This document shows positions 15,838 to 33,642 of a stretch of 63,022 nt of DNA, in pieces. Made by a program: the position numbers and the translations under genes. The first letter of the stretch is position 1. Each line of letters starts with the position of its first letter. Location: the NCBI GenBank assembly GCA_031539165.1, contig JAVKLK010000033.1:1-63022 (forward strand), read 5' to 3'. The notes under the pieces were generated by a model. That model searched no databases, was not told the DNA's origin, and was given only the letters and a program-made list of their open reading frames with translations. Source of the stretch: Patescibacteria group bacterium (GTDB lineage: Bacteria > Patescibacteriota > Gracilibacteria > BD1-5 > UBA2023).

Positions 15838-15954
15838 CGGTCAAAAGAAGAACGAAGGAGTACATTTAGAAAATCATTCTATCAGAAAGGAAGTGATTTG
15901 CGATTGATTTTCAAAATATATATCCGATAATGATTCGGTAATCCGTTGTTATTT

Positions 15955-16512
15955 ATGCAGACGTTTCTTAAAACAGAACAAGACGGGAACCGAGTAGAGT
16001 TCCTTGTCGATACCAATATCTTCTCTCTATCAAGCATTCTCAAGGCATCCTATATGTTTTTGGATGTTGCCTATTTCTTCTTCCGCAAGGACGAACAAGG
16101 AAATGTTGTAGTCCAAGTCACCAGAAAAGGTGACACTGGGATTGCTCCTGAGAGCCTCATCCGAGACTACAGTGATGAACTTCTTGCCACCGTTCTCCGA
16201 GAAAATCTTGAGCGAGACAACAAAGAAATTCGTGAAACTATCGTAAAAACCGCTCTTGGCGGGTATGCGGATGTACGAGGACATACGTCTGTAAATACAA
16301 ATCAGTATTCTCAGAATCTAATAGATTTTGATAAAGATATTGATGAAATCCTCAAAGAAATTGAAAGTGATCCAGATCTTCAGATAGACCAAGCAGAAAT
16401 CGATGCCGTTCTCAAAGAGATAGAATCATCTGAATCAAAGCGTAAAAATGGAAGCGTAACTATTGATCCTAATAAAGTTAAAGATGCTAAAGCAAAATTT
16501 TGATCTCGATAA
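15955..16512 (+). CDS. hxsD: HxsD-like protein with acidic repeat tail
   Basis: ATG 15955 (track TTG 15946). VEFLVDTNIFSLSSILKASYMFLDVAYFFF resembles the small His-Xaa-Ser system protein HxsD. The C-terminal tail carries the repeat IDEILKEIESDPD / IDAVLKEIESSES. Reads through TGA 16501-16503 to TAA 16510-16512. The family call is from memory of the family, not a search. Confidence 0.5.
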
Positions 16513-16690
16513 AGAGCTATACTCTGCATCCTCAATAGACACAACACTTGAGGCCTTTCAAGAGGGGTTTGAAGATGTGTATTTCAGTCGAACCGAATCT
16601 GGAATTGAGATACATGCAGAAAGTAAGGATGCCATCGAAATTGCCTTCTTGGAATTCGTGACCTACTGTACTTCTGTTTCTTCCCTATAG
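16484..16690 (+). CDS. second small HxsD-like protein (68 aa)
   Basis: ATG 16484: MLKQNFDLDKELYSASSIDTTLEAFQEGFEDVYF...IAFLEFVTYC. Overlaps the end of the previous CDS in another frame and stops 3 nt before the radical SAM gene. Confidence 0.4.
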   Translation: MLKQNFDLDKELYSASSIDTTLEAFQEGFEDVYFSRTESGIEIHAESKDAIEIAFLEFVTYCTSVSSL

Positions 16691-16693
16691 CTT

Positions 16694-18172
16694 ATGAGTA
16701 TGAATCTCCTTTCGCTTGCAAAAAATATCCATCCTAGTGTAGGATTCTTTCGATTCAAGAAATTGAATGGAAAAATTCTGATAACAAATGAAATAGGTGG
16801 ATGGCACTTCCTTGATGAAGATGAGTTTGCCTCATATGTTCAGGGTAAACTTGAGGATGGACCTTTATATGAAGCGTTAAAAAACAAGCTCTTTATAAAG
16901 GGACCCGATTATGAGGCTCAGATGGCAGCGGTATACCGGAAAAAAAATTCCTTCCTATTTTTCGGACCAACACTACACATGATTGTAACTACTCTTCGGT
17001 GTAATCATGCCTGCAAGTACTGTCATGCGGCTGTAGCCCCAATGACCGCAAAAGACTTGGATATGACAGTAGAAACAGCGGAAAAGGTTGTTGATACCAT
17101 CTTTTACTCATCGTCACCAAATCTGACCATTGAGTTTCAAGGAGGAGAAAGTCTGGTAAACTGGAAAGTTGTACAGTTTGTAATAGGATATGCCAAACAA
17201 AAGGCGTACTTTCTAAAAAAGAATCTTACCTTCTCTTTGGTCACCAATCTGTCTTTGATGGACGATGAAAAACTTACATATCTTCTAGATGAGGGGATTA
17301 ATATCTGTACGTCACTTGATGGAGATACGGAAACACATAATGATCAGCGAGTTTGGAAAGATGGAAATTCATATGAGAAAGCCACCTATTGGATTAAGAA
17401 AATAGAAAATGAGATGAAAAAGCGATGAGATGAATCCTACAAAGTATGAGCCCTAACTACTTGGACAAAAACAAGTATAAAGAATTATAAGAAGATAATT
17501 GATGCCTACGCATCTCTTGGAATAAACACAATTGGATTTAGATGGCTGAATCCGTATGGGTTTGCGGCTGCGCAAAAAGCCGACATGAGTTACTCTCTTG
17601 AAGAATATAAGGCTTTTTATAGGAATTGAATGGACTACATTCTTGATTTAAACAAGAAAGGGGTCTATCTTAGAGAAATGATTTCATCAGTATATCTGCA
17701 AAGCATACTAACAAACGAAGGAACTCAGTTTATGGATATTCGATCTCCTTCTGGGGTAGCACTATGATGAGTGGCATACAATTATGATGGGAAGGTCTAT
17801 GCGTCAGATGAATCACGCATGCTTTGAAGAATGGGCAAACAAGATTTTCTTCTCACTCCTATGCTAGAAACTGGAGAGGCCACATATACAGCCATGGCAA
17901 ACTCAGATGTGACAAAAATCGCAACTCTTGCAAGTACTTTGGATGGATTACCAGGATACAATGACTCTGTTTACAAACCCTATATGGGAACGGATATTAT
18001 CTATTCCTATACTCAATACGGGAATCCTTATAGTACTTTTGCGAAAGATGAGAAGAATAAAATGCATCTCGTAACTCTAGATTATCTGTTTGAAAAACTC
18101 CAAGATCCAGAATCAGCAAAAATATTCAAAAGCTGGGTATTTGGTGAAGATTTTCTAAAATCAGAGGCCTAG
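16694..18172 (+). CDS. radical SAM maturase, HxsB/HxsC-like (rSAM-1)
   Basis: Track ORFs 16694-17428 and 17831-18172 share a frame, joined through six TGA codons. CNHACKYC (CxxxCxxC) and FQGGES. N-terminal FRFKKLNGKILITNEIGGWHFLDEDEF is typical of peptide-maturase rSAMs. No Cys after the core. Confidence 0.85.
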
Positions 18173-18231
18173 CTGGTTCTTCTTGATTCTCGAGATTTAC
18201 ATGCTATACTTAAGTCACTAACATCACTATT

Positions 18232-18717
18232 ATGAGCATTAAACCAAAAAAGGAGCTCCCAAAAATTAAAAAAAATCTCTCTGGATTTCTGACACCAGAG
18301 AGCTCAAAAATAAAAAAACTTGATGCACTCGCTCTAGCAGTTGGAGCACTCGCCCTACTATGAGGTGTATCGGAAGCAGCAGCAAGCCACTCTAGCTCTA
18401 TAACTCCATCTCATAGCAATGCTGGAAGTCATGGAAATGGAGGAATCCAATCTGGAACCGCCTCGCACGTGAATGGAAATGGTATTGATGGAACAGTATG
18501 GTATAACCAAGGATTTGCAAACTGCGCCGTGAGTCAAGTAGTGAATTGACACGTAAGTGGAAGTATCCCGAGCCAAGTTCCTGGAACGGCAGATATTTCT
18601 GGATGAAATATTATGGGGACAAATTTATCTGCACACTCTAACAGCACAGTAAACAGTCACGCGAGTCATGGAAGTCATGGAAGTCATGGAAGTCATGGAA
18701 GTCATGCTGCTTACTAA
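18232..18717 (+). CDS. hxsA: His-Xaa-Ser repeat protein, putative RiPP precursor (HxsA-like)
   Basis: 161 codons. Lys-rich N-terminus, one hydrophobic segment LDALALAVGALALLGGV, then scattered SHSS, SHSN, SHGN, SHVN, GHVS, AHSN, SHAS, ending SHGSHGSHGSHGSHAAY. Three in-frame TGA codons. Confidence 0.75.
18664..18708 (+). repeat. tandem 9-nt coding repeat (agtcatgga x4 plus agtcatgct)
   Basis: Encodes (Ser-His-Gly)4-Ser-His-Ala at the C-terminus of the HxsA-like CDS. Confidence 0.95.
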
Positions 18718-18726
18718 ATTTTAGAC

Positions 18727-19422
18727 ATGAACAAAATAAAACAGTCACCTCAGATTATTATCGCTAGTATTCTGGCGTTTCTCATAGGATGTGGAGCTAT
18801 GTTCGCATGGTCTCAGCTACAGCATGTCTGAAATGGGAAATCAGAGAAAAAAGAAACTCGTGAAATGGTGCAAAAAAATTCTTCTGGCACTACTACCGGA
18901 ACCTGAGAGGTACCTTCTATTCGGATACCAACCCAATCTGATGTGTTTATGCAGAGCTTCTCTTGAATTATAAATGGAGAAGGATTTGATGCAAAGTTCA
19001 CAGCATACGGTCAAGCAAAAAAAACCATAGGCGACTATATAGCGAATGGAAGTGGTGGAATCTTTTACGAGTATCCAGGAACCGATTATGTAGTTCCGTC
19101 CCTTTTTGTCTGTGAAACCCTTACAACAGCAAAGAATATGAAAGACTTTGAAGGAGAGCTCCGGAATTCTATTCGCAAGTACCAAAGTGTTTTTACAATA
19201 CAGTCTAAATCTTCAGAAAACCCTGATTTTAAAATGCTCAATGAACATCTTCAGTCGTTTATATCAGGAAAAATACCATTTGAAGCATATCAAAAACTCG
19301 TAAGTCCTCTTCTTCAAAAATATGAGAAAGAGAGCAAGCTTTTTTCTTTCTTTCAAGAACTTATTGATATGAAAAAGGATGACACAGTTGACTGTGCCCA
19401 GCTCTCAAGAAAATACTTCTAA
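18727..19422 (+). CDS. putative lipoprotein
   Basis: ATG 18727, 9 nt after the precursor stop. Signal peptide with lipobox FLIGC. Joined through three TGA codons to track ORF 19138-19422. Confidence 0.6.
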
Positions 19423-19425
19423 GTT

Positions 19426-20898
19426 ATGTCCCGCGCCCATATACAATTTAGGGGGGTTATCGCCGATATTGACCAGAAGAAGAGTGGATGACATTTTCCC
19501 GATCAGCTCATTATTCGGGTTTGAAAATGATGTAACTTTCGTTGTGCCTTTTGTAATGTTGCAGAAAATGAAAAAGTCTTAAGCATAAAGGCATCACTCA
19601 AGGAAATTCTTGCCATAACCTTCCGCAAGATTCTTCATTCGAATCTTACCTCTGGAAGGATTAATGTTACCGTCTCTTGAGGCGAACCAAGTATATTTCA
19701 GGCAGAAACTATTTTTGTATTGAGATATTTTCGAAAGTATTTTGAAAAAAGAGGAATTACTGCTCAATTCGATATTCAAACGAACGCATCAAATATTGAT
19801 CAGAGATTCTCCGAAATACTCAAACAGGAATGAGTGGTTCAAGCTCTTGTTTCAACACATGCTCATGATCCCGATATATACAAAAAAATTATTGGTGTTC
19901 CCTATGAAACTCTGGGAAAGAAGGCTGAGCTAGGAATACGCAATCTCATCGAATGTTGAATTCCCGTTTCTCTTAATATAGTAATGAACTGAGTAAATGC
20001 TGATCATTACTTTGAACATATACAATACCTCGTTGCCTCTTTCCCAGAGATTGAACTTTATAACCTGGGTATGATGCAGCCTCACTGAATGGCACAAAAG
20101 AATTTAGAAGAGCTCTATCTTCCTTACGAAAAAGGACACCATCAGTATAACAGAGCAATTCACTATCTTAAGTGAATTGGGAAACGAGTTCATTCACATC
20201 TCGTAGGGCCACCTGTATGCTATATGGACGATGTAAGCTCAAGTCTTGAGTATCTTCATAACCGGAACATTTTCAGGGAATGACCTCAATCACAAACGCT
20301 TATTCAGGATATCAATGATGATAACAAAACTCATACCTCAGCCTGCAGAATGTGCAGAGCCAAGAGAGTATGCAGTGGAACATGGAAAGAATATGCTGAC
20401 AAACAGACGCTCCATCCAATCCCCACTGGACAATTTCTTATAAGCTCAAAATGATGCCATATATTTGAGAATAAAGCTGCTGCTGAAAAGCTTTATTCTC
20501 AAGGAATTCGTGAAGTATTCATTCTTGGAAAAGACAGTAATCAAATTATTGATGACATTGCTACGGTTAAGAATATCTGATACGAATCTATCATTTTAGT
20601 AGATACATTTGAAAATGTGAAAAATCCTTCGGACATATCCTGAGTAACAATTCAATCTTGGTTTGAAGACATGAAGAAGTACGGTCTTCAGAAGCTGCTT
20701 CATATAGAAAGATACAACCGAGAGAGTGGATTTCAGTTCCAGATTGACTCAGATGTACATATTCCCTATTTATCTTCAAAAGAAGCTGAGTGGATAAATC
20801 AACACCCTTTTCCAAGCATAGTATACCATGTTCACTCCTGGAGTCATGAGGCAAAGATGAAATGTCAAAATCGTTCAAATATAGTTTTCTGAAAATAA
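19426..20898 (+). CDS. radical SAM protein with C-terminal Cys motif and ~170 aa extension (rSAM-2)
   Basis: ATG 3 nt after the previous stop. IIRVGKGCNFRCAFCNV (CxxxCxxC). VSGGEPS with the first G encoded by TGA 19678-19680. Later CRMCRAKRVCSG (CxxCx5C). More than ten in-frame TGA codons. Tail matches track ORF 20671-20892. Confidence 0.85.
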
Positions 20899-20901
20899 CA
20901 T

Positions 20902-22347
20902 ATGAAAGTGGTAATTTTTTGATTTGGAAGACAAGGAAAAAAATATGCCTCGTATTTTAAATCCAAGGGAAATCACCAAATATTGATTGTTGGGAGGCAA
21001 AAAAGAAATGATGCCGATGGGCAGAAATATTGTGAATATGAACATTTCTTACAAGAATATAGATATACATCCTTTGATCTTGCGATAGTTGCAGTATCCC
21101 CCTTAAATGAACAAGAAAAGGTCATTCAAAACATTACCGAGCTTCCCATTTCGAAGATTCTCATAGAAAAACCCATAGGGAGTAGCCTGCTCCTAAAAAA
21201 ACTTTGCTCTAGAGAAAATGTTTTTTACTACTTCGATGAACTCTTTCATCCAGTATTCAACATGATGCTCAATCCAGAACGCTTACATATAGAAGCTGAG
21301 GATGAGAGTGATGCAATGAATATTATTGATCATGCACTCTCTTGATTTCTTTATCGAAAAGACTTTGAGTCAATCATATCAAATCTTTCAATAGAATATA
21401 AAAAATGATCTCCCAGCTATACTATTTATGAAAACGGAGAGACAATCGTTCATAAAGATGGAAATCTATCGTTCGGGAATCATGCTTTCTTCGAGTTAGC
21501 TTTTGATGCTGGAGTAAAATCTACTCTAGAAAGTATGGAAGATCCTGTAATCTGGGAAACAATTCGTATAAATAGCATATTCCTCCGGGAGTTTACGGAG
21601 CGCTGGAAACAAAAAAAGAATGTAGACTTATTTATAGGATTAAATGAATGTGAAGGACAATGTTTATTTTGTAATAAATGAGTGGGTCTCGTATGAGTTA
21701 CTGAGAGTGGAAAACAAAGTCAAGAAAACTGCATCCGCTACACTCCAAAAACAGAGGCAGAAGTATTCAAGATTGCAAAAAAGTGTTGGTGAAGTCCTGA
21801 AGTAATAACTATAACGGGATACGAGCCTATTCTTTACCCCAGGCTTACGGAACTACTTGACATAATTAGGGAAAGTAATCCCTCGGCCAAGATTCGCCTA
21901 AGAACGTCTGGATTTATAGAAATAAACCCAGTTCTCTACGAGAAGATAGATGGCGTCGAGCTTCCTATATATGGCTCAACTGAATTCATTCAAAATGCCA
22001 TGGGGGGCAACACAAAAGCATGGGAATGACTGCAGAAGAATATTGAAATAATCCAATCATATTGATTCATTGGGAAAATATTTTTTCAGACCATTCCTCT
22101 TCGAGAAAATATCCACGATATCAAGCATATACTTAACATGGTAGATGCTCTTGGAAATCAGAATGAGTTTCGGATTATATACCCCTATTTCATGCCAACT
22201 ATTCATATGGAACAGTTACTAAGTCGTGCAGAGGTGATAAAAACACTTCTGTCTGAATTGCCAGAAGTACTGAGAAAAAAATGTACTTTGGTTAACTTTC
22301 CAAGAAAACCATATTTAGATAACTTATTTAGAAGCATATGCCACTAG
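20902..22347 (+). CDS. Gfo/Idh/MocA-type NAD(P)-binding domain fused to a radical SAM domain (rSAM-3)
   Basis: N-terminus MKVVIFGFGRQGKKYASYF (GxGxxG, with one G encoded by TGA) and ILIEKP (the EKP signature). C-terminal half has CEGQCLFC (CxxxCxxC) and ITITGYEPIL. Joins track ORFs 20983-21345 and 22138-22347 in one frame. Confidence 0.8.
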
Positions 22348-23057
22348 TATCACGCCCTGTTTGATTCTGATTTAATATTCTCAGTGATGCTAAAAGCGAA
22401 TTTCACAGTCTGTTTCATGGAAATGAGATGGCAAGTTATTGCAAAATCATAAGTAGTGAATCTCACCCTGATATTCCAACCATAAAAGAAGTATATTTTT
22501 CATTTTGGAAAACAAGCGCCTACTCAAACGGAATTTTAAATTTTACAGAACTTCTCTCTCGGAGTCATTCACAAGAAGTACCAAAGATAGAAGCTCTATA
22601 CGAGAATCTTCTCAAGAAACAGTGAAAGCCAGGGGAAATATGAGAGATACACTACGGAATAGATTACTTAGACCATGATTTAGCCATATATTTTTGTTTT
22701 AAGGATAAATTAACTATCACAAAACTTCTTTCGGATGCATGTAAACTTCCGGAGGACTTTTTTTCGGAGTTCTTTTGGGAAGAGGCACGGAGGTTTCATC
22801 TTAAAATAAAGTACCATAGAAATGGGCAGGATATATCTGGAGTATTCACTTCGCATAATACCCCCGATATCAATGGCTTCCTCAAGTTTTTATCGAAATA
22901 TGAATCCGAAAAGCTCAAAGATATAGAGGCATATCACTCTAAAATAAAGGAAGAGTTTGTTATATATAATATTGAGTACTCGTTTAATTTTACAAAATGA
23001 AAGCTTGAAAATGTAGTATATTTCGTACTTCCTCGGTTTTGAGAGATTAGTGAGTAA
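22338..23057 (+). CDS. hypothetical protein
   Basis: ATG 22338 overlaps the previous stop by 10 nt (alternative ATG 22428). Includes track ORF 22428-22625 and reads through TGA codons to TAA 23055-23057. No motif recognised. Confidence 0.5.
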
Positions 23058-23784
23058 GTGACTGGTCTTTATATTTCTTTCAGATATGGAGATATCCGAG
23101 ATAGAGCGTCTTCATATCCGCATCGAATGCATTCCTAAGATCAAGCTGAATTCTTGAAAAGAATATTCTCCAAAAACGAGATTCAGAGAATTTATCACGC
23201 CAAAGATAATCTCGAAGGCACGACTTCAGGAAATGGATATCACAGCTCGAATTTATAAATAAAATAGCAAAGTCCTCTTCTCGAAAGGAGTAGCGTAGAG
23301 ACATAAAATCAAGGATTCCAATATCTCATGTTTCCATCTCAAAGAAATTGGAATTATCGAGACTTCCATGAATTAAAACTTTGCCAGAATCATTTTGGAT
23401 AGCATGAAGCGAAGATAGGGTAGCCCCCAGTTTCCCTCCTGTCTGAACAGAATACGTTGGACGTGTCGCTCATTTGCGCACATTCTCTATCTTGAGAAAT
23501 GAATAAGGTCATAGCTCACCTGAATCAATAATTCTTGGTATACGAATAGAGGAATCAGCAAGCAATTGATAAAAGTAATATTCCTTGTCCCTCTCGTGAG
23601 AAGAAACATAAAATTTATAAACCCACTGATATGCTGGATTAATGCAAACATACCCATAGTTTCCTGTAACTACCCGGAAGCCCTGCCCAGATAAAAAATC
23701 GTTCGGAAGAAGAGAGATAACTTCAGTCTTTCTCTCTTCCAATAAAACTCTTCGAAGCCGAATATCCTGGAAAAAATCGTTCAT
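23047..23784 (-). CDS. APH/choline-kinase-like phosphotransferase-fold protein
   Basis: Track ORFs 23509-23784 and 23080-23304 share a frame, joined through TGA codons. VLIHGSLDNSNFF (compare HGDLGDSNIF of aminoglycoside kinases) and GILDFMSLRYSFREEDFA (DFG-like region). Confidence 0.6.
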
Positions 23785-23840
23785 ACGTTATATAGTACTC
23801 TCTACCCTCTCGTTCTGGAAATTAATTTGCGAGGAAAAAA

Positions 23841-25136
23841 ATGAAACATACACTTCCCTCAAAAAGAAAGTTTTCTGTTAAAATGCCAACATTACTTGAG
23901 TCACTTCTCTGAGAATACGGTTCGCTTCTTGCGTGCTCCTTATTAGAAGTTCCAAGTTTCTCACAAATAGAAGAAATAGTGCAGAATACGGCAGTTCCCT
24001 TATCTACAAAAATTGCTGCAGCATCCAGACTGGAAAATATACCCTTCACCTCAGACGTATTAGATTTTCTTTGAAATGAAGAGATACATCCATCAATCCA
24101 AGCCGTCATAGTCAGTAAGTTTACCTTTGGGAAAGAAGTTAAGATTCTTGATTTTACAGATAGAATAAGTGATCTCCCCCTTCTAGTCCGGGAAGTTTTC
24201 TGGGCAGTTTTACCAATTCAAAGACGTGACATAGCTCAGATTATGAAGTCCACTTTGAGCCTATCAGAAAAGCAAATATTAGCTAAAAGAGCTCGAAATA
24301 GCATGCCTTCTCCAGAGCTATCATTTTGATTTCAAAGAATGCAACACTATCTCTATACCTGAAAGAGAGAAAGTAAATCTAATGCAATTAGTTGATGAAA
24401 TGAAGATTTTGAGAAACAAAAAACAATAATTGCATTGAAATTACATAAGCAAACCGAGCCTATATCAGTCAGCGAATACTGAATCATTACAGAAAATTCT
24501 CACTTCAATTCTTCTACCAGAGAAAAACATGCAGTTGCAGTAAATCGATATCAGCTTTCTCTTCTTCAATGGAAGAATCATTTCAAGATTATACCAAACA
24601 AAAGGAATCTTATTTTTTATTACAGGAAAGAACAGGGGGCTTTTGATCCGCACTACATTGAGATGGTACGCTTCTTAAAATGGTATATAGCTTCTTCCGG
24701 GTCACCACTATATACGGATATAAAGATAGCCCTTCGAGATAGGTCAAGTTTATTGCATGCAAAAAATATTTTCGGGGGAGAAGACTCTGACTATATCAGT
24801 GAAGAGTGACCCTTATTTCAAGCAAAGACAAGTGTTTTCTCAGATATGATTCACTTAAACCATGGAACTCCTGAAAAAACACCAGGGAGTTTAAGTATAG
24901 TCTGAGATGCAATTGCATCAGATCCTGAAAAATACTGCCCGTCATATATCCCCTTGCATCTTCTCTACTTTGGTGGAAGTAACTACACAACGATATATAG
25001 AAACTATAAATGAATACTACCAGGAAGTAACGAACTCGGTTTCCCTATGAATAAAAGTATGCGAGAGATTCTATCAGAGCTATTCGATGCTATAAGATGT
25101 GCTGAACTCACTCAATTGAAAAACGCTTGAATATAA
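23841..25136 (+). CDS. hypothetical protein (431 aa)
   Basis: GAGGAAAAAAATG ribosome-binding context at 23831-23843. The frame is open from 23841 to TAA 25134-25136 only when about nine TGA codons are read as sense. No motif recognised. Confidence 0.6.
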
Positions 25137-25166
25137 AATATTAAAAGTTGCCGAAGGAAAAACGAA

Positions 25167-26516
25167 GTGTACACTTTGAGCATGAAAAATAATCTTCTCG
25201 CCAAAGAAAAAACTACGAAAGAAAATCGAATTTGGGTCAGAATTGCAGCAGCCTGCAATGAGAAATGTAAATTCTGCCTCGATAGCGAAGCGCAGGATGG
25301 TCGATTGATTCCGGAAGATGAGGTAAAGCAAAAGATTCGCGAGGCTTTTGTTGCAGATACATATAATAGAGTGATTCTCTCATGAGGAGAAGCAAGCATT
25401 AATCCAAAGTTTTCTGAGTATATACAGTATGCAAAAGAAATTGGCTACAATCGGGTGCAGACGGTCACAAACGGTAATATGTTCTTCCGAAAAGAATTTT
25501 GTGACAAAGTAGTGAACGCCTGATTGGATGAGGTTACATTTTCAATGCACGGACACACTCCAGAGCTACACGATTATCTTACAGCAACACCCGGATCTTT
25601 TAAACGTGCACTTATCGGAATAGCAAACCTAAGAAAGTATCATCCTCATGTAATACTCAATATCGATATCGTGGTGAATCGACTCAATGTATCATTTCTT
25701 CCAAAAATAGTCTCCTTGTTCTTGAGATTTGGAATTATGGAATTCGATATACTCCAGATAATCCCCTTCTGAAGAGGTTTCAAAGAATTCAAAAATGAGC
25801 TTTTCTATAAAATCGAGGATGTACTCCCTCAGCTTCATGAAACATGGAATCTCTCAAAGATTCCATGAATGTATATTTGGACAAACCGTTTCCCTGCCGA
25901 AGCTTTTGAATGATACGAAGATCTAATACAGGATCCACGGAAAATAAAATCTGAGACTCTCGGAGAAGCAAGAAGTGAATACGATACTTTCATTCAGAGT
26001 CATGGAAAGAAGAAGCCTCGATGCTTCTGAGAAAGATGTGATGTCTGTTTCTTACAGCAATATTGTCATGATTTCCTCAAAAACAAAGATGCTCTTTTAG
26101 ATGGTAGAAAATACATCATTTGAGACAGGGCTTCCGGAGATATATCAGAAGCGGAACTCGTAGTTCTTAGGGGAGAAGAATTTCCAAGTGAGGTATATCG
26201 AAAATATGGGAATAATGGTGAAGAATTCATAGAAAAAATACAATCCCTGAAGCTAACAAAGACACAGCAGATTGTTAACGTACCAAAGTGCATACGAGCA
26301 GAGAATAACTCAGGGCAATATGAATGGTATTGAGATACGAGAGTTATTTGAGATGCTGAAGAATATACCGGACAGTACATTAAGAACTTCTATCGGAAGA
26401 AATCCCCGCGCTGCAAGTCCTGCATTCATTTTGAGAAGTGTGAGGGAATACATATAAATTTCATTCGATCCTATGGATTCCAAATAATGAAACCTATCCA
26501 GAAGAAAGAAGCATAA
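25167..26516 (+). CDS. radical SAM protein with C-terminal Cys-rich region (rSAM-4)
   Basis: Track ORFs 25167-25385 and 25524-25772 plus the downstream frame. AACNEKCKFC (CxxxCxxC). ILSGGEAS with a G encoded by TGA. CFGERCDVCFLQQYC and RCKSCIHFEKCEG near the C-terminus. GTG 25167 follows AAGGA; alternative ATG 25182. Confidence 0.85.
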
Positions 26517-26565
26517 ATCTCTGAAAAAGGTTGCTATTGTCGGAATTTAGGATTATATATTCGGT

Positions 26566-27555
26566 ATGGCAAACATCTGATACATCCAAGTAAATCGATA
26601 CTGCAACAATCAGTGCCATTTTTGTTCAAACCCATCAAACGGAAAAAACATAAGCTATGAAAGAGGGCAAAAGATTATCGATGAGTTTGTATCAAAGAAA
26701 TACAAGGGAATAATATTCACAGGCGGTGAGCCAACTCTATCTCCCGATTTAGCTCGTTGGATAGCATACGCGAAGTCTGTATGAATGGAATCTCGAGTAA
26801 TATCAAACTGAATGCGCTGCTCAGATTTCTGATATACAAAAAAACTTGCAGATGCTGGACTAGAACTCATTCACTTTTCTGTATTTTCGTACAATCCAAA
26901 AGTACACGACTTCCTCACAGATACTCCAGGATCATGGAAAAAACTAATGCTTTCCATATGAAATGCCCTAAAACTGGGTATTAGAGTTCAAATCAATACG
27001 GTCATTAATCGCTATAATCAGAACCATCTAGATGTAACAGTGAAATTTCTCTGTGGACAATTCCCAGAAATCCGTCACTTTGTATGGAACAATCTCGACC
27101 CCCTCATGATGCGAAAAACGGAGATTGCATACTCTACACTTCCAGATTTCTCTACATTTGAGAGGCCACTACAAAAGGCTATGACTTTTTTAGAGGAAAC
27201 TGGAAGAACATTCCGGGTGGAACGGGTACCTCTTTGTTATATGAGAGGCTTTGAGCATTTCTCAACAGAAACCAGAAAGATAGTCAAGGATGAAGAACGA
27301 ATTGTTCACTTCCTAGATGAAAGAGAAGTGGTAGAGCAAAAGTCAGAGTGGTTTTTTCATGACAAATCAGAGACTTGCAAAGGCTGTGATTTGAATGCAA
27401 TTTGTGCTGGAATCTGGCTTGCAAAACCAGCAAATATTTTCTGAGTCGATCATCCATGATATTTCAAAGATATCGAATATAAACCTCAAAAGCTTTCCTT
27501 GCAAGAAAAAGAGCTTATTATCTCAAAAATTAAAAATACTGGCAAATATGCCTAA
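26566..27555 (+). CDS. radical SAM protein (rSAM-5), paralogue of rSAM-4
   Basis: MANIGYIQVNRYCNNQCHFC (CxxxCxxC), FTGGEPTL, HDFLTDTPGSWKKL (compare HDYLTATPGSFKRA in rSAM-4), and C-terminal CKGCDLNAICAG. Includes track ORF 27040-27444. Confidence 0.85.
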
Positions 27556-28435
27556 TATTATTATCAATAATATCTGTAATCAGCGCTGCAGCTATTGTTT
27601 CGCAATGGATAGTATGACAGTGGATAAACTCCCCTTGCAGAATCAATCACTCGGAACATACCTTCAAATATTAAAATTCCTGAAAAAAGAGGGGGAGAAA
27701 GAGGTTCGACTTCTATGAGGTGAACCCCTTCTACATCCAGAAATATCAAAGTTCATAAAAATTGCCAACAAAGGGTGATTCTACACGCGAATATTCTCTA
27801 ATATTAATTTCTCTCCTGAATTTCTCCAGAAAACACTTCAGGGAAATAGCATCCCCAATGCTACTAACTGCAATATCAATAATCGTGATTTCTATTCAGA
27901 TAGCGAGTATGCTCAAGTGAAAAAAAACATTATTTACCTTCGAGAGAGCGGCTGTGATGTAACGATTGGCTACAATGTATACTCTTTAGAAAAACCATTC
28001 TCGGATATAATAGATATTTCAAGGAGCACGGGAATTCGGAGAATTAATCTTAAGGTTACCAATACCGCGTTGGGATCCCCCCTTATTGTTGACACATCAT
28101 CTAGAGAGTTTGGTAAATACTTAGCTACGGCTGTCATTCCATATCTCGGAGAATTTGAGTTCCTATTTTCTTGTTGATTAAGCAAGTCGATTTTCAGTGA
28201 AGAAGAAATTACCACCATGAATCAGCACTGACTTCTGCCAAAATGGTGATGCGATGGAAATATGGGAAAATACGATATAGATGTAGACGGATCAATATTT
28301 AAATGCTTTCCAACTCGTCCCCTTTACCTAAAGAAATCTATTCATATAAGCAATTTCTCTCCGAGACAAAAATCCATAGAAAAATTTGCTCAGCTAGAAA
28401 ACTCTACCGACATATGCATAGCTCATAAACTTTAA
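27548..28435 (+). CDS. radical SAM protein with partial SPASM/twitch-like motif (rSAM-6)
   Basis: ATG 27548 overlaps the previous stop by 8 nt. NNICNQRCSYC (CxxxCxxC). LLGGEPLL with the first G encoded by TGA. GCDGNMGKYDIDVDGSIFKCFP resembles the start of a SPASM domain. Includes track ORF 27917-28177. Confidence 0.8.
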
Positions 28436-28439
28436 ATCT

Positions 28440-29501
28440 ATGTTTCCTTTTACTCTCTGATATTCAGAAAATCCCGTTGTTCAAAAATATCAAGACTTAT
28501 ACGCAAAAGATCTCCTAGAAATAGCAATGGAGCTAGAGACATCTTTTGAGAAAATGGATTCTAAATTTCTCCTTCTTGGAGATATATCAACTACGCTTGA
28601 AGCTTTTCGAGCCAAGGAGTTAGAGGCAAGTGAAGCGCTAAAATTTCTCCAACAAGAGTTTGAATATTGGAAATCGAACTGTAAATCACGTATGTTTTCA
28701 TTTTCATGAAACAGTATCCCTGGAGTAGCAGTGCTTCTCTCAGAAAAAGACGCAAATATCCATGCACGAGTACATGATGGACACCCTGAACATGTGCGAA
28801 CCAATGTCGTTTGATGATGGGGGAAGGTTCCAGTAGAAGACTGGATCACCCTCTATGAGAAAAGCTTTTCAATTCTCAAAACATCCTCACCCTGATTCTG
28901 CAATGAACTTTCATGAATCATAAATAAAATAATTCCAATGGACGTGAGTATCAGGGTACATAATTCTTGCTCGTATGATCGATGCATATGACATCTTTAT
29001 TTAAGTTACCCCTTGGAAATAGATGTCCCCGAACTAGCCGTACTTGAAGCTCTCATACATGAGTCGAACCACAATAAATTAAACCTTATTCTAAAGCAGG
29101 ATCCCCTCGTTCTAAATGGACGTGAAACCAAATATTATTCCCCCTACCGCCCAGATGCGCGACATATTCATGGGATTTACCTTGGACTCCATGCAATGGC
29201 TTGAGTATTTTATACACTATTCGAACTTCACTCAACTGGGAAATATCTTCTCAATCATCGATGGCTAGAGAAGGCAACGGCATACTTCATCAAAGATAGC
29301 CTTTCTATAAAAGTACTCGATCGATATGCACAACTTACAGATCTTGGGAAAACTGTCTATGAAGAAATGAAAGCGGTTCATGAAGAAACCGCGAAAATGG
29401 TTAGTCAGTGTGTAACACCCGATATTCTTAATAGAGCAAAACACATAAATCAGGAGCATTTTATGAAAGTGCAGATGATTCACTCAGATTTGTTATATTA
29501 A
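28440..29501 (+). CDS. HExxH-motif domain protein (family co-occurring with rSAM peptide maturases)
   Basis: ATG 4 nt after the rSAM-6 stop. LIHESNHNKLN (HExxH), then YSPYRPDARHIHGIYLGLHAMA. Joins track ORFs 28527-28709 and 29013-29204 in frame. Confidence 0.65.
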
Positions 29502-30728
29502 TTAAAGGTGGAGGGCACTTTGAATCCAGCGAAGTAATTCATAGAAGATAGACTTCCCTGATACCCCTGTAATCACCCACCCTAAAAATCAGTAAAAGAA
29601 GAAGGAGGGTGGTTGATGCAGAACAAACTCTCGGAATAAAAAGGCTTCTCCATAATCATGAATTCGTTGTTTGAATGCGGAAAGAAGTGTTAGATGTTTT
29701 GGGACAATAGAAAAAACAGGCTGAGAAGTATCTATTGAGAGAAATGAAAGATCATTCTTTTCAGGATTGTAAGCATTCTTCTCACGAGCTATTCTCATGA
29801 AAGAATCCCAAAGTATAGATGTTTCTTTCATTGCAATCAAATCTCATACCCTCAAATCAGAAACAGGAATACGCAAATTTCCTCAAATCAATGTCCATAT
29901 ACTACGAATCCTAGGAGAGAAATAAAATATCTTCTCTAGAAGAAAAACTGATACTGTCTGCCAGAAAAGAAAAAATATTCCAGCAATAAGAAGTACAGAA
30001 AAGTACGATTGAATAAATACCAAAAGAGATTTATTTTGGAAGCTTTCAAATAAGACGGCAAGTATCATAAGAAGTGTTCCAAATAGAAGCACTCGGAGCT
30101 GTTTCAAAGTGAGTTTTGGAAGAAGAATCATGAGTATTCATGCCTTCATAATCAAATAATTCTCTCTACCAAAACTCACTATAACCCTATCAATATCTAC
30201 GAGTAGCCCCAGTCCAAATGGTGATGCAGAGAGGAAAAAGAGAGATGAGAAAACAAGCATTCTAATTCACTGAATTCCCCAAGAGCGAAATTTAAACGGG
30301 TGTTCCTCTAAGTTTGGAAGAATTCAACCTAAGCCAAAAAAAAGAAGTATTCGTTGAAAGATTGCCAGCAGAAATACTCCTGCTGCCATATTCGACAGAA
30401 GAGCGAAGGGAATGCTTTTAAGAAAACCTATACAAAATATAACACCAAGAGCGAGAATATTTTCAAGCTCCAAGATACGCCTCACATAAACAAAAAATCA
30501 GAGGGAGAAAAAAACAATCAGTGTTAGATAGTCATGAGTGGCTAACTCCGGTCCTAATTCGTGCCTTACCAAAAGGAGGCCAAAGATACAACTCACGAGA
30601 ATCGGGACAATTCAGTACTTTTTTTTCTCAAGGAAACATAGAAATAAGAGTACTACAGCGAAAACCCCCCATTCAATGGAAATGATTGGAGGGATTCCAG
30701 AGAATATAGTGGGGGGAACTCAAGGCAT
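29502..30728 (-). CDS. polytopic integral membrane protein
   Basis: Joins track ORFs 29883-30131 and 29589-29840, extending upstream to ATG (rc 30726-30728) through TGA codons. About 8 hydrophobic segments and a soluble C-terminal part. The start is 1 nt after the upstream stop. Confidence 0.6.
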
Positions 30729-30729
30729 T

Positions 30730-33642
30730 TTATCGAATCGAACTAAGAAGCGGTGGTGGGTCCTTAATGAAATTTGGATTATATTCTATGACTACGGGAA
30801 ACGCGGCGAAAGAATCAGTCGTCGTGCTGATAGTGCGTAGTCTTGGGGCAGCGCCAGAACAATTCCCGTCAAGATTACACGTTGCCCCTCCCATAACCTT
30901 CGTAGTGGTATATCGGTTTGGTATTTTAATTCAAGCAGTACCACCAGAATTTTCTGCATCAACCAAGGTGTATCGACGGAGGAAATTTAAATCATACTTT
31001 TGAGCAAGATCTCGGTCACAAGAAGCATTTCCAATAATAGACGGACAGTACACCGGGCTCTTTGTAGCACCTCCAAGAGAGTTTGCGCTGATTACCGATC
31101 CATAGATATAGAGTTGATTCTGAAGCTTATCAATTCCGACACCCGCTCCAAGCTCGTCTGTTCCATCAAATCCAACAAGTGCTCCATCAGCATACAGAAA
31201 TCCTGATATGTTTGTAACAGAAGGATCAATGTAAATATTTCCTCCTTGTCCCGAATCGTCTTTTAGGGCAATAATAGCAAGATTCCCTCCCCCTGTATCG
31301 TACGCAATATTTGATCGAATAAATACATTCAATCCCTTCGTGACAATCGTTCTCTTCCCAGAAACGGTATATACCCCCGAAGCATCCTGAAGCGAAAGTC
31401 TCTGCCCTCCCGATGTAGCTTCATAGAGATATACTACTCCGTCATCTTGTGCAATGGATGCTCCATTAAGCATACTTCAGGATGTGATGCGACCGGCAGC
31501 CATATCAGAAGAACTCAGAGAACCAGAAACAGGCTCTGTTCGAAGTGATCTTGTGCCAACAGAGGCAGCTCGACGAATAGCCAATCGAGTATCTTCCTTC
31601 GAAACTCAAGACAATACGGTCACATTCTCCGAGAATTGATTCGTTGTAATCTGATTTGCCTCATCCGATGCGGTGAGTCCAACTATTTTTACTCCATTTT
31701 GGAGCGTAGTACTCCGAACATCTCCCCAGTAACTCGTTTTTCAAACAACGGGGCCATTTATAACAGCCCTCTTTCCGTCAAAACTGTACGCAAGGTGGGT
31801 AGAAAATACCGTGTTATTCGTTCGTCCAACTGTTGTTCCTGGAATCTGCTCCAGTGTAGTGTAAAGGGGGCTTTGAGTGGAGCTACTCGATGAAGGAAAT
31901 GCAAATTGCTGAGCAAGAAGATTTCGAGATACCCCTATGCTCGCATTCTCCATTGAAAGATGGTCTGTACCAGCATGAAACGTGAAAGAAGGTGTAGATG
32001 AATTATCTACAAACTGAACAGAAATTTCAGGAGAAGCAGCATTCAATGAAGTCTGACTTTGTATTGAAAGAGTGCTCTGCTGAATTGTTCCCTCGATTAA
32101 TCCACCCGTTCGTATGTCTCCAGTAAGTTCCAGAAGATACGGAACTTTCCATTTCCCATCAACAGACGCAGAATCAGAAACTACCGTGTTTGTAAACTGT
32201 GGATCAGTGACTCGAATTCGCATCTCATTAAGCGTAAACGCAGACGATGAATCCGAAGGAGTTGTACCTGGAGCATACCCGGATGCCGTAGGAGCATACG
32301 CTGAAAAGTTCACTCGATACTTTCATGAGTTCACCCCATTTGAAGTAAGTACTCCTGGAATAGAGAACGTCTCCGTACCTACTGGAGCAATGGGTATACG
32401 AACCGAACTCGGATTAGCTGTATTAGAAACAAATACGGCTGAGTCATCTGCTCGTGTATGTTGGTTTAAGTAATTCGTGTTTTTGTACGTAAACTCTTGC
32501 GCAAGAGTTCGATTAATTCCCGATGCAGGAAGAATAGGATTTCCATACCCATCCCTCAATACATACGTGAGTTCATACGGTGTTCCATTTGCTACTGCAG
32601 AACCAGGAGAAATGCTATTACCATCTACTGAAAGCGTTGGGGCATGCATTGGATTTGCATACACCACATAGGAGAATCCTGCCGATCAGCCTGCACAGTT
32701 CCCTGCAGCATCACATACTTGAGTAATATTCCACTGATAGGGGCGTCCAGCATTGCTCAAGTTCTGTCGAACATTGCTGATATCTCCCGTATATCGAATC
32801 GTATAATCTGTCGTAGTTCCAGAAACTGGAGTTTGAGCATTAGTCGTTGCATTGGTAAAGTTTCCCGACCAGCTTGCAAGAGGAGAGCCGGCTCCATCGC
32901 TATATACTGCTGAAAATCCCTGAGCACTGTTTGCTACTAAGTTTGGTCCACCAGAAGAATCGGTGAAGTTCCCCGTTGTTACAACCGGTGGTTGTGTATC
33001 AACACGGTATGTGTTCGATCCATAGCGAGGAACAGAGAGATTTCCTGCCCCATCAACAGCAATCGCAGCAAATTTATAGGCCCGGTTTCTATTGGAACGG
33101 GCAGAATCCGTATATACAATTGATGTGTTTGCGGTCAGTCCTCCAATCTGAGTATACGAAGTCCATCCACTCGAGAAATCTGGAGAAGCGTCCGAGTATG
33201 AAACGTAATAATAGTATCCCGAAAGGTTCGATCCTCCATAATCGGATGCTGTTACCGACACAGAAACACTCGGGTTGTTTGACCATCCATCCGTATAATT
33301 CACTGAGGCGGCCGATGGAACTGTGGCATCCCAGTACTGACACCCAATTCATCCAGCCCAAGCACTGTATACTCTAGCCTGTGCAAGATACTGTATACCG
33401 TATGTACCTGGATAGAGACTATCGAGAGAAGGGTTCGGTCCAGTGCCGTCAAACTGACCATCAGCAGAACACTGGGTAATGCTTGAGCCTGTAGAAAGAG
33501 AATACCCGCCATACCAAGCAGCAGAAGTGGTCTGCATGCAAGCAAGAAGGATAAGTATGCCACATGAAATCTGGCAAGAAATCTGAATTAGGCGTGAATA
33601 TCTCATAAAAGGGGAGGTAACACCCCTATAGTAGTACATCAT
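30730..33642 (-). CDS. large secreted/surface protein (~970 aa)
   Basis: Five track ORFs (33349-33642, 32686-33303, 32323-32667, 31741-32313, 30931-31473) share one frame, joined only by TGA codons. Signal-peptide-like MRYSRLIQISCQISCGILILLACMQTTSAAW (alternative start 33606). Ser/Thr/Gly/Asn-rich, beta-rich repeat-like segments such as NTYRVDTQPPVVTTGNF. Confidence 0.7.

What the first reader, a model, noticed from the sequence alone, without database searches (positions are those of the whole stretch)
18232..18717. Candidate precursor: membrane-anchored protein with dispersed S-H-x-S/N motifs ending in (SHG)4SH
Seen: the 161 aa product has a Lys-rich N-terminus and one hydrophobic helix. 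It then carries 8 dispersed His motifs, each His preceded by a small residue (SHSS, SHSN, SHGN, SHVN, GHVS, AHSN, SHAS) and followed two residues later by Ser or Asn. The C-terminus, SHGSHGSHGSHGSHAAY, is encoded by a perfect 9-nt tandem repeat at 18664-18708. Three Gly positions are TGA. Established: this matches the HxsA concept. Inference: His and/or Ser side chains are the targets of the neighbouring rSAMs. The repeat could vary in copy number by slippage, and a His-rich array could bind metal.
Basis: partly seen in the sequence, partly recalled or inferred. Interest (0 to 1): 0.75.

Follow-up and report, generated by a model that had tools for sequence, protein, structure and literature searches.

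The report
His-rich HxsA-type protein, Gracilibacteria variant
This gene, from a bacterium that reads TGA as glycine, encodes a small exported histidine-rich protein that radical-SAM enzymes probably modify; it belongs to a large, undescribed branch of the His-Xaa-Ser (HXS) system, which in E. coli blocks phage DNA entry.

Summary
ORF 18232-18717 (+) encodes 161 aa once its three in-frame TGA codons are read as Gly. It has a Lys-rich N-terminus, one hydrophobic helix and 12 His. All 12 follow a small residue, and 11 sit in H-x-[S/N]. The protein ends in (SHG)4SHAAY, encoded by a perfect 9-nt repeat.

It lies directly after genes that pass NCBI's curated cut-offs for HxsD and HxsB. It is the only such ORF in the 63 kb window. 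It belongs to a family with 487 cluster representatives, mostly from TGA-recoded lineages. The family shares a leader (PKxKKxLxxFLTxESGKIxKKD), a 14-17-residue hydrophobic segment, an AxA-like site, a VNGH motif and a variable SHx tail. HxsB lies directly upstream in 11 of 13 informative metagenomic loci.

The protein scores below the cut-offs of all four curated HxsA models, and no neighbouring radical-SAM enzyme passes as HxsC. It has no peptidoglycan-binding domain and no basic residues, unlike E. coli HxsA. It is more likely a cleaved secreted protein than a membrane anchor.

The slippage prediction is confirmed. A 98.9%-identical strain differs by exactly one 9-nt unit. Modification chemistry, export and function are inferred. 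Verdict: new variant of a known kind, moderate interest.

The parts
15946..16512 (+). HxsD homologue, 188 aa
   Evidence: NCBIfam TIGR03976 gives 54 bits against a cut-off of 50. It is 42-52% identical to the HxsD gene in related loci.
16484..16690 (+). Conserved 68-aa ORF between HxsD and HxsB, with an F.EF.NY-type C-terminal motif. It may be a second HxsD-like partner. The start codon is uncertain.
   Evidence: An ORF sits at this position in L001, L002, L003, L016, L017 and L026. It has no Pfam or NCBIfam hit. Profile comparison with HxsD is inconclusive: E = 0.015, probability 3%.
16694..18172 (+). HxsB radical-SAM maturase, 492 aa. It keeps the CX3CX2C motif but has none of the C-terminal auxiliary-cluster Cys residues.
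   Evidence: TIGR03978 gives 464 bits against a cut-off of 370. The closest solved structure is CteB (5WGG), matching the core only.
18183..18224 (+). Two overlapping sigma-70-like hexamer pairs in the 59-nt gap before the precursor. This is the largest gap in the cluster.
   Evidence: The number of such sites in the region does not exceed the shuffles, so this is weak evidence.
18232..18717 (+). HxsA-type His-rich pre-protein, 161 aa under code 25
18232..18321 (+). Lys-rich leader, aa 1-30 (PKIKKNLSGFLTPESSKIKK)
   Evidence: This is the most conserved part of the family: P10, K11, K13, K14, F19, L20, E23, K26, I27, K29 and D31 are invariant in A1. It aligns to positions 2-30 of the NCBIfam HxsA3 profile.
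18322..18384 (+). Hydrophobic segment (aa 32-47) followed by SEAAA. This is a probable Sec signal h-region and AxA cleavage site just before Ser52-His53.
   Evidence: Kyte-Doolittle peak at residues 32-46. AF2 helix 29-45 with pLDDT 92. The family's hydrophobic segment is 14-17 aa, followed by E[DE]xxA[AG]H. Cleavage itself is inferred.
18385..18663 (+). Disordered Ser/Gly/Asn/His-rich core. It holds the 7 dispersed [S/G/A]-H-x-[S/N] motifs (the last, H143, is followed directly by the repeat) and the family's VNGH motif (aa 104-107).
   Evidence: AF2 pLDDT is 46-55.
18664..18706 (+). Perfect 9-nt tandem repeat (AGTCATGGA, 4.8 copies) encoding (SHG)4SH
   Evidence: TRF. Strain L018 has one unit fewer. 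Run lengths of 0-10 His occur across the family.
18727..19422 (+). 231-aa protein with an N-terminal TM or signal segment, function unknown
   Evidence: No family hit. L001 and L021 carry a protein of similar size and N-terminal hydrophobic segment directly after the precursor, but it shows no detectable sequence similarity.
19426..20898 (+). Radical-SAM protein, 490 aa. Its best match is HxsC, but below the cut-off.
   Evidence: TIGR03977 gives 71.7 bits against a cut-off of 267.9.
20902..22347 (+). Fusion of a Rossmann-like N-terminal domain with a radical-SAM domain, 481 aa
   Evidence: Pfam Radical_SAM 46 bits. GFO_IDH_MocA 21 bits, which is weak. L026 has the two parts as separate adjacent genes.
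22338..23057 (+). 239-aa protein of unknown function
   Evidence: No family hit.
23047..23784 (-). APH-like kinase-fold protein, 245 aa
   Evidence: Pfam APH 28.5 bits against a cut-off of 23.2.
23841..25136 (+). 431-aa protein of unknown function
   Evidence: No family hit.
25167..26516 (+). Radical-SAM protein, 449 aa. Its best match is HxsC4, but below the cut-off.
   Evidence: NF038332 gives 124.5 bits against a cut-off of 500.
26566..27555 (+). Radical-SAM protein, 329 aa. Its best match is HxsC, but below the cut-off.
   Evidence: TIGR03977 gives 94.2 bits against a cut-off of 267.9. It has a 43%-identical homologue in L021.
27545..28435 (+). Radical-SAM protein, 296 aa. It is the counterpart of the enzyme that directly follows the precursor in the compact locus L016.
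   Evidence: 32% identity over 307 aa to L016 3883-4779, E = 6e-39. Pfam Radical_SAM. No HxsC hit in NCBIfam.
28440..29501 (+). alpha-KG-HExxH-type peptide beta-hydroxylase, 353 aa, with an HESNH motif
   Evidence: TIGR04267 gives 63.3 bits against a cut-off of 40. It has a 33%-identical homologue beside a second precursor copy in L021.
29502..30728 (-). Multi-pass membrane protein, 408 aa, function unknown
   Evidence: No family hit. A similar-sized multi-TM gene sits beside the HExxH gene in L021. Homology between the two is not shown.
30730..33642 (-). Large secreted protein, 970 aa, that recurs next to loci of this type
   Evidence: tblastn finds homologues in L001, L003, L021, L024, L030, L032 and L033, in varying position and orientation. 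No Pfam or PDB match.

Best explanation
The ORF encodes the substrate protein (HxsA-type) of a Gracilibacteria/Absconditabacteria-lineage variant of the His-Xaa-Ser (HXS) radical-SAM maturation system.

Shown:
- It is translated with TGA as Gly into a 161-aa pre-protein.
- The pre-protein has a 30-residue Lys-rich conserved leader, a roughly 16-residue hydrophobic segment, an AxA-like site, and a disordered, almost uncharged Ser/Gly/Asn/His-rich region of about 110 residues. That region holds 12 [S/G/A]-H-x-[S/N] motifs and a length-variable SHG tail.

Inferred:
1. In the cytoplasm the leader is bound by HxsD, the small neighbouring ORF, or the N-terminal domain of HxsB.
2. HxsB and a second radical-SAM enzyme (27545-28435, possibly also the HxsC-like paralogues) covalently modify one or more H-x-S/N motifs. 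In E. coli HxsA a +8 Da change maps to SHRSS.
3. The alpha-KG-HExxH enzyme may beta-hydroxylate His or Asn.
4. The product is exported by Sec and cleaved after AAA51. This releases a modified His-rich polypeptide at the cell surface.

Its role there is most likely an envelope-level barrier or interaction function like the E. coli antiphage effector. The mechanism must differ, because this protein has no peptidoglycan-binding domain and no basic residues.
For: - Genes directly upstream pass the curated cut-offs for HxsD and HxsB.
- Gene order HxsD, small ORF, HxsB, precursor recurs in L001, L003, L016, L017 and L026. HxsB lies directly upstream of the precursor in 11 of 13 informative metagenomic loci.
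- The family has 487 representatives with a conserved leader, hydrophobic segment, AxA-like site, VNGH motif and SHx tail.
- 86% of 1316 family His are H-x-S/N.
- 65 of 68 members match NCBIfam HxsA3 at E <= 1e-3.
- The close strain differs in the ORF by 3 synonymous changes and one in-frame repeat unit only.
- In some relatives (SHG)n is encoded by fully diversified codons, so the peptide repeat itself is selected.
- AF2 models only the hydrophobic helix with confidence. The rest is disordered, as expected of a maturase substrate.
- In E. coli, HxsB, HxsC and HxsD are needed for N-terminal processing and for a +8 Da modification of an S-H-x-S-S motif. The product is exported and blocks phage DNA entry (PMC13128918).
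- alpha-KG-HExxH enzymes hydroxylate His and Asp in RiPPs (PMC12636437).
Against: - The protein is below every curated HxsA cut-off. The best family member reaches only 47.9 bits against 65 for HxsA3.
- No radical-SAM enzyme in the window reaches the HxsC or HxsC4 cut-offs.
- The window's HxsB has lost all auxiliary-cluster Cys. In E. coli, mutating the second cluster abolishes defence.
- The mature part has 0 Lys/Arg and no recognisable domain. The electrostatic DNA-binding and peptidoglycan-anchoring model of E. coli HxsA therefore does not transfer.
- A 30-residue n-region is unusually long for a Sec signal. I ran no signal-peptide predictor.
- No PADLOC defence model matches beyond generic radical-SAM/viperin similarity.
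- There is no expression, mass-spectrometry or phenotype data.
Confidence: 0.75

Rival explanations
1. RiPP-like secreted metal binder. The maturation route is the same, but the released His-rich polypeptide captures or buffers Zn, Ni or Cu for a metabolically reduced episymbiont. It is not an antiphage barrier.
For: - The mature part has 12 His in about 110 residues and no Lys or Arg, so its only titratable charge comes from His.
- The family median is 9 His, 1 Lys/Arg and 2 Asp/Glu.
- A His lies 1-2 residues after the predicted cleavage site across the family. From my own knowledge, this could form an N-terminal Cu/Ni site.
- The cluster has RiPP-type tailoring genes: several radical-SAM enzymes and an alpha-KG-HExxH hydroxylase.
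Against: - The cluster has no metal transporter, metal-responsive regulator or riboswitch.
- The only experimentally studied HXS system is a phage defence (PMC13128918).
- Simple metal binding would not need radical-SAM chemistry.
Confidence: 0.2
2. Uncleaved N-terminal signal anchor. The Lys-rich N-terminus stays in the cytoplasm, and the His-rich region is displayed on the outer face, tethered to the membrane.
For: - The charge distribution favours an N-in topology: 9 Lys before the helix and none after.
- There is a single confident helix at 29-45.
- The n-region is unusually long for a cleavable signal peptide.
Against: - The uncharged segment is about 16 residues here and 14-17 across the family. 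That is short for a stable transmembrane helix and typical of signal-peptide h-regions.
- It is followed by a conserved small-x-small site just before the first His.
- E. coli HxsA is N-terminally processed and released into the periplasm.
Confidence: 0.25
3. An ordinary low-complexity secreted protein that is not modified. Its position next to the radical-SAM genes would be coincidental.
For: - No curated HxsA model is passed.
- The downstream radical-SAM genes are not conserved between loci.
Against: - HxsB is directly upstream in 11 of 13 informative loci, and HxsD is also present.
- The leader is conserved far more strongly than the rest of the protein.
- The leader is shared with NCBIfam HxsA3 and HxsA4.
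Confidence: 0.04
4. A spurious ORF or microsatellite artefact, not a real gene.
For: Under the standard code the frame has three stops. It also contains a perfect DNA repeat.
Against: - TGA is a sense codon throughout the window.
- The family has 487 representatives.
- The close strain shows only synonymous changes plus an in-frame indel.
- Other loci encode the same peptide repeat with diversified codons.
Confidence: 0.01

Closest known systems
E. coli HXS antiphage system, effector HxsA (Li et al., Nat Commun 2026, PMC13128918)
   Same: - Both use HxsD and HxsB homologues, which here pass the curated cut-offs.
- In both, the substrate has an N-terminal export signal and repeated S-H-x-S motifs.
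- The E. coli protein is N-terminally processed, modified on SHRSS and exported. The same route is inferred here.
   Different: - Lineage: this one is from a code-25 candidate-phyla bacterium. The paper found 99.7% of HXS systems in Pseudomonadota.
- Gene order: HxsD, small ORF, HxsB, HxsA here, against HxsD-HxsB-HxsC-HxsA in 99.6% of the paper's systems.
- There is no peptidoglycan-binding domain and there are no basic residues.
- It has 12 motifs (7 H-x-S, 4 H-x-N, 1 H-x-A) plus a hypervariable SHG tail, against five repeats in E. coli.
- HxsB lacks the auxiliary-cluster Cys.
- No HxsC passes its cut-off.
- The cluster carries about 10 kb of extra genes: 4 more radical-SAM enzymes, a kinase-like gene and an alpha-KG-HExxH hydroxylase.
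NCBIfam HxsA3 (NF038309) and HxsA4 (NF038313), with the HxsC4 radical-SAM enzyme (NF038332)
   Same: - The Lys-rich leader aligns to HxsA3 profile positions 2-72, and the SHxSH tail aligns to HxsA4.
- 65 of 68 family members match HxsA3 at E <= 1e-3.
- One neighbouring radical-SAM enzyme has HxsC4 as its best match.
   Different: - All scores are below the curated cut-offs: 27.5/65 for HxsA3, 31.1/55 for HxsA4 and 124.5/500 for HxsC4.
- The best family member reaches 47.9 bits for HxsA3.
- The protein is longer, at 161 aa against profiles of 81-93 positions, and it has the family's extra VNGH-containing middle region.
Radical-SAM/SPASM RiPP systems such as SCIFF/CteB (PDB 5WGG)
   Same: The precursor has a leader-plus-core layout. 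HxsB's radical-SAM core is most similar to CteB among solved structures. The precursor gene lies next to the maturase gene.
   Different: The substrate is a protein of about 110 residues with its own Sec-type signal, not a short Cys-rich peptide. This HxsB has no SPASM Cys. The cluster has no dedicated protease or ABC exporter.
alpha-KG-HExxH peptide beta-hydroxylases (ChlBH, BpmH, PflC/PosC; PMC12636437)
   Same: Gene 28440-29501 passes TIGR04267 and has an HExxH motif. Known members hydroxylate His, Asp, Gln or Asn in radical-SAM-associated RiPPs.
   Different: [quoted passage not shown] It has not been tested on this substrate. It is absent from the compact loci of the same family, L016 and L017.

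Membership tests
HxsA (NCBIfam TIGR03979, HxsA2, HxsA3, HxsA4) | Score at or above the curated cut-off of one of the HxsA models | tested here: not met
   A4 31.1/55, A3 27.5/65, A2 9.6/48, and no hit to TIGR03979.
HxsA (NCBIfam TIGR03979, HxsA2, HxsA3, HxsA4) | Repeated His-Xaa-Ser motifs | tested here: met
   Of 12 His, 7 are H-x-S and 4 are H-x-N. No shuffle out of 200,000 matches the pattern. 86% of family His are H-x-S/N.
HXS system (HxsABCD) | Adjacent HxsB radical-SAM maturase | tested here: met
   TIGR03978 gives 464 bits against 370. The gene ends 59 nt upstream of the precursor. The same adjacency holds in 11 of 13 informative loci.
HXS system (HxsABCD) | HxsD small protein | tested here: met
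   TIGR03976 gives 54 bits against 50.
HXS system (HxsABCD) | HxsC radical-SAM maturase | tested here: not met
   The best scores are 94.2 and 71.7 bits against 267.9 for TIGR03977, and 124.5 against 500 for HxsC4. The enzyme that follows the precursor in the compact locus (window 27545-28435) has no HxsC hit.
HXS system (HxsABCD) | N-terminal export signal on HxsA | tested here: inconclusive
   The 16-residue hydrophobic segment and the AAA-S site fit a Sec signal. The n-region is 30 residues long, and I had no signal-peptide predictor.
HXS system (HxsABCD) | Peptidoglycan-binding domain and basic HxS repeats, as in E. coli HxsA | tested here: not met
   No Pfam domain. The mature part has 0 Lys/Arg and is disordered in the AF2 model.
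HXS system (HxsABCD) | Radical-SAM-dependent covalent modification and processing of HxsA | not testable with these tools
   This needs co-expression and mass spectrometry.
HXS system (HxsABCD) | Antiphage activity | not testable with these tools
   No PADLOC model matches. No relative was found on viral contigs or in phage records. A phenotype test is needed.
Code-25-lineage HxsA-like family (defined here; 487 representatives) | Leader PKxKKxLxxFLTxESGKIxKKD, a 14-17-aa hydrophobic segment, an AxA-like site, His, a VNGH motif and an SHx tail | tested here: met
   All these elements are present in the window protein. Its E-values to P0002-P0005 range from 4.5e-9 to 5e-3.

The most novel reading that the evidence does not exclude
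In Gracilibacteria/Absconditabacteria the HXS machinery has been rebuilt into a larger surface-protein maturation system. In this reading, a Sec-exported, disordered, uncharged His-rich protein is multiply modified by up to six radical-SAM enzymes and an alpha-KG-HExxH hydroxylase. Its SHG tail changes length by slippage. It works together with the recurrent ~1000-aa secreted neighbour at the episymbiont-host or cell-phage interface. The chemistry and mechanism would differ from the E. coli DNA-entry block, and HxsB would work without auxiliary Fe-S clusters.
Probability: 0.2. Interest if true: 0.75.

Novelty: new variant of a known kind. Interest (0 to 1): 0.5.

Why it matters
The HXS system was given a function only in 2026, as a block on phage DNA entry in E. 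coli. That study reported it as almost confined to Pseudomonadota.

This locus shows a large and highly diversified sister family in TGA-recoded candidate-phyla bacteria. No curated model captures it, and code-11 or code-4 gene calling mistranslates it. Its substrate lacks the two features the E. coli model relies on, namely basic repeats and a peptidoglycan anchor. It keeps the H-x-S/N motifs.

This points to the modified His motif itself as the functional core, and it gives a natural comparison for working out the unknown radical-SAM chemistry. The length-variable SHG tail and the compositional island suggest rapid, conflict-driven evolution in organisms with very small genomes.

Tried and rejected
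- PADLOC scan of ten cluster proteins (HxsD to the 25167 radical-SAM enzyme): only generic radical-SAM/viperin similarity.
- Phage GenBank records (blastn) and IMG/VR viral contigs: no relatives.
- Rfam, at gathering thresholds across the window and at permissive thresholds for 15.7-19.5 kb: only tRNAs, no riboswitch.
- Promoter and terminator scan: site counts do not exceed the shuffles.
- Small ORF against HxsD by profile-profile comparison: inconclusive, probability 3%.
- The 231-aa TM protein against its positional counterpart in L001: no similarity.
- Pfam and PDB searches for the 970-aa neighbour: nothing.
- AF2 of the precursor: no fold beyond the hydrophobic helix. I therefore ran no fold search.
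- The look-up of encoding contigs for P0004: not on record.
- Cluster look-up: ten singletons with no names.
I used P0001 instead, which has Trp at the TGA positions.
- My first motif scan of the proteobacterial loci was unreadable, because I had applied TGA read-through to standard-code DNA.
- Reading TGA as Trp (code 4): rejected, because of the UvrB Walker A and the HxsB alignment.
Full report
**1. Observation**

The ORF at 18232-18717 (+) is real. It reads as 161 codons only if its three in-frame TGA codons (18361, 18547, 18604) are sense codons. The whole window behaves this way: long ORFs such as a 1455-aa gene appear only with TGA read-through.

Gly is the supported reading, not Trp:
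- UvrB's Walker A reads GVTGS-TGA-KT, and several radical-SAM enzymes read S-TGA-GEP.
- The six TGA positions of the window's HxsB align with G, D, T, A, Q and A in standard-code HxsB, never with W.
- The TGA in VN-TGA-H falls on the family's conserved VNGH Gly.

From established knowledge, code 25 places the organism in Gracilibacteria or Absconditabacteria. The nearest HxsB in GTDB genomes is from a Candidatus Gracilibacteria MAG, at 63% identity.

The protein has these features:
- There are 9 Lys in the first 30 residues.
- There is one hydrophobic segment at residues 32-46.
- There are 12 His, all after residue 52.
- Every His follows S, G or A.
- The +2 residue is Ser in 7, Asn in 4 and Ala in 1.

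In the non-repeat part, 7 of 7 His fit [SGA]H.[SN], and none of 200,000 shuffles reached this. The tail (SHG)4SHAAY is encoded by a perfect 9-nt repeat at 18664-18706.

There are seven dispersed motifs, not eight, and the repeat ends at 18706, not 18708.

**2. Context**

The genes are tightly packed, with gaps of 59 nt or less. In order they are:
- HxsD at 15946-16512: TIGR03976, 54 bits against a cut-off of 50.
- A conserved 68-aa ORF at 16484-16690.
- HxsB at 16694-18172: TIGR03978, 464 bits against 370.
- The His-rich ORF.
- A 231-aa TM protein.
- A radical-SAM enzyme that is HxsC-like, at 72 bits against 268.
- An unknown gene, a kinase-like gene on the minus strand, and another unknown gene.
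- Two more radical-SAM enzymes. One is HxsC4-like (124 bits against 500) and one is HxsC-like (94 against 268).
- A 296-aa radical-SAM enzyme at 27545-28435.
- An alpha-KG-HExxH peptide beta-hydroxylase: TIGR04267, 63 bits against 40.

The 16-30 kb block has a GC content of 0.36-0.39, against 0.42-0.47 in the flanks. No other ORF in the window, in any frame, carries the leader, the VNGH motif or an SHx run.

**3. Family**

A word-indexed search found a 96%-identical protein (P0001) and four relatives at 38-62% identity. A profile of these five, searched against 1.84 billion representatives, found 487 proteins at E <= 1e-3 and 120 at E <= 1e-10. Most are 100-170 aa long.

Members share the following features:
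- a leader, [FL]PK[IL]KKxLxxFLTDESGKI[TS]KKDAL
- an uncharged segment of 14-17 residues
- E[DE]xxA[AG] followed directly by His
- a variable Ser/Gly/Asn/Thr/His region with a conserved H[AS]SG[IV]VNGH[YF]S motif
- a C-terminal (S-H-x)n run of 0-10 His

Of 1316 His in 133 members, the +2 residue is Ser in 60% and Asn in 26%. The median Trp content is 5.5%. This reflects TGA miscalled as Trp, so most members come from recoded lineages.

NCBIfam HxsA3 matches 65 of 68 members at E <= 1e-3. The best score is 47.9 bits against a cut-off of 65. The family is therefore an unmodelled sister of HxsA3 and HxsA4.

AF2 with the family alignment models only helix 29-45 with confidence. Residues 52-158 have pLDDT 46-55, which indicates disorder.

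**4. Linkage to the maturases**

The order HxsD, small ORF, HxsB, precursor recurs in L001, L003, L016, L017 and L026. Of 15 metagenomic loci, 13 have enough upstream DNA to judge, and HxsB is directly upstream of the precursor in 11 of them.

In the compact locus L016 the precursor is followed at once by a 298-aa radical-SAM enzyme. L017 also starts a radical-SAM gene there. The L016 enzyme is 32% identical to window gene 27545-28435. In the window, therefore, the second core enzyme lies 8.8 kb downstream of the precursor, after a block of accessory genes.

Parts of that block recur elsewhere. L026 has an HxsC-like radical-SAM enzyme and a separate Rossmann-like gene followed by a radical-SAM gene. 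L021 has the 26566-type radical-SAM enzyme and the HExxH enzyme next to a second precursor copy. Accessory content is otherwise very variable.

**5. Repeat dynamics**

L018, a Logan contig from SRR27421862, is 98.9% identical to the window over 1495 nt. Within the ORF it differs by three synonymous changes and by exactly one 9-nt unit.

Two other near-identical pairs also differ in unit number. L023 and L024 have 11 and 5 SHG units, and also differ by an internal duplication. L032 and P0028 have 5 and 3.

Some loci carry perfect 9- or 18-nt DNA repeats. L017, L028 and L029 encode the same (SHG)n with diversified codons. Slippage therefore operates, and the peptide repeat is also under selection.

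**6. What is known**

Li et al. (Nat Commun 2026, PMC13128918) showed that the E. coli HxsABCD system is an antiphage system that blocks phage DNA entry. Their main findings:
- HxsB, HxsC and HxsD are needed for non-canonical N-terminal processing and for a +8 Da modification on SHRSS.
- The two Ser and the His they mutated in that motif are each essential.

alpha-KG-HExxH enzymes beta-hydroxylate His, Asp, Gln or Asn in RiPPs (PMC12636437).

**7. Interpretation**

The protein is best read as the HxsA-type substrate of a lineage-specific HXS variant. The conserved Lys-rich leader is the likely maturase recognition element. The H-x-S/N motifs are the likely modification sites. The short hydrophobic segment plus AAA-S suggests Sec export and cleavage, which would release a disordered His-rich polypeptide. 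All of these steps are inferred.

Function is the weakest step. The E. coli model of basic repeats binding DNA from a peptidoglycan anchor cannot apply as such. The mature part here has no Lys or Arg and no domain. Candidate-phyla cells are generally thought to lack an outer membrane; this last point is from my own knowledge.

Metal binding remains a live alternative. So does a role with the recurrent ~1000-aa secreted neighbour.

The window's HxsB, together with those of L001 and L016, has lost every auxiliary-cluster Cys. Proteobacterial HxsB proteins have seven to eight. This argues for altered chemistry, or for a shift of catalysis to the other radical-SAM enzymes.

**8. Verdict**

Three parts are overstated or untested: 'established' HxsA membership, the membrane anchor, and metal binding.

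The locus is a new variant of a known kind and is moderately interesting. It extends a recently characterised defence system into recoded candidate-phyla bacteria, with a different substrate design and an expanded enzyme set. Nothing here is categorically new, and all mechanistic steps still need experiments.

Noticed in passing
window 16484-16690; L001 9802-9987; L002 2519-2716; L003 9709-9921; L016 1759-1947; L017 1807-2004; L026 4260-4445: A conserved 60-70-aa ORF lies between HxsD and HxsB in these loci. It has a C-terminal F.EF.NY motif and no Pfam or NCBIfam hit. It may be a second HxsD-like partner. The profile comparison with HxsD was inconclusive.
   Followed up: partly
window 16694-18172: The window's HxsB, and those of L001 and L016, keep the CX3CX2C motif but have no C-terminal auxiliary-cluster Cys. 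Klebsiella and Myxococcota HxsB have 7-8 such Cys. L002, L003 and L017 keep three.
   Followed up: partly
window 30730-33642 (-); L001, L003, L021, L024, L030, L032, L033: A secreted protein of about 1000 aa with a conserved C-terminal region has no Pfam or PDB match. It recurs next to Hxs loci in seven other contigs, in varying position and orientation. This hints at a functional link.
   Followed up: partly
P0068, P0078, P0089 (family members, not in the window): Some relatives carry a C-terminal extension of about 150-190 aa directly after the SHx repeats. Two of them start this extension with Cys and end it with HN. Pfam gives weak Hint (18 bits) and PT-HINT (21.9 bits) matches, both below threshold. 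This could mean autoprocessing at the C-terminus of the His-rich region.
   Followed up: partly
window 16000-30000: The whole cluster is a compositional island, with GC 0.36-0.39 against 0.42-0.47 on both sides. I found no integrase or adjacent tRNA. The tRNAs lie at 6.2-6.4 kb and 39.8 kb.
   Followed up: no
L021 and L026 (same 166-kb contig, Ga0210025_1000060): One genome carries two precursor genes about 20 kb apart. One sits in an HxsD, small ORF, HxsB, HxsA locus. The other sits beside an alpha-KG-HExxH enzyme and the large secreted protein, with no HxsB or HxsD nearby.
   Followed up: partly
L004-L013 (Proteobacteria and Myxococcota): In these standard-code genomes an HxS-repeat ORF starts about 300 nt after HxsB, giving the order HxsB then HxsA. 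The E. coli paper reported HxsD-HxsB-HxsC-HxsA as near-universal.
   Followed up: no
family C-termini (P0001-P0153; L001, L021, L022, L025, L030, L031): The family has recurrent C-terminal endings: GGWC (18 of 133), GSRW (13) and GSRR (6). AAY occurs in the window protein and in three database members, including its 96%-identical relative P0001. In L001 the Trp of GGWC is a true TGG codon. These endings could be processing or sorting signals.
   Followed up: no
L001 13551-15573: The related Gracilibacteria locus carries a HemN/HutW-like radical-SAM enzyme and a diphthine-ammonia-ligase-like PP-loop ATPase downstream of its precursor. The window has neither, which shows how variable the accessory gene set is.
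   Followed up: no
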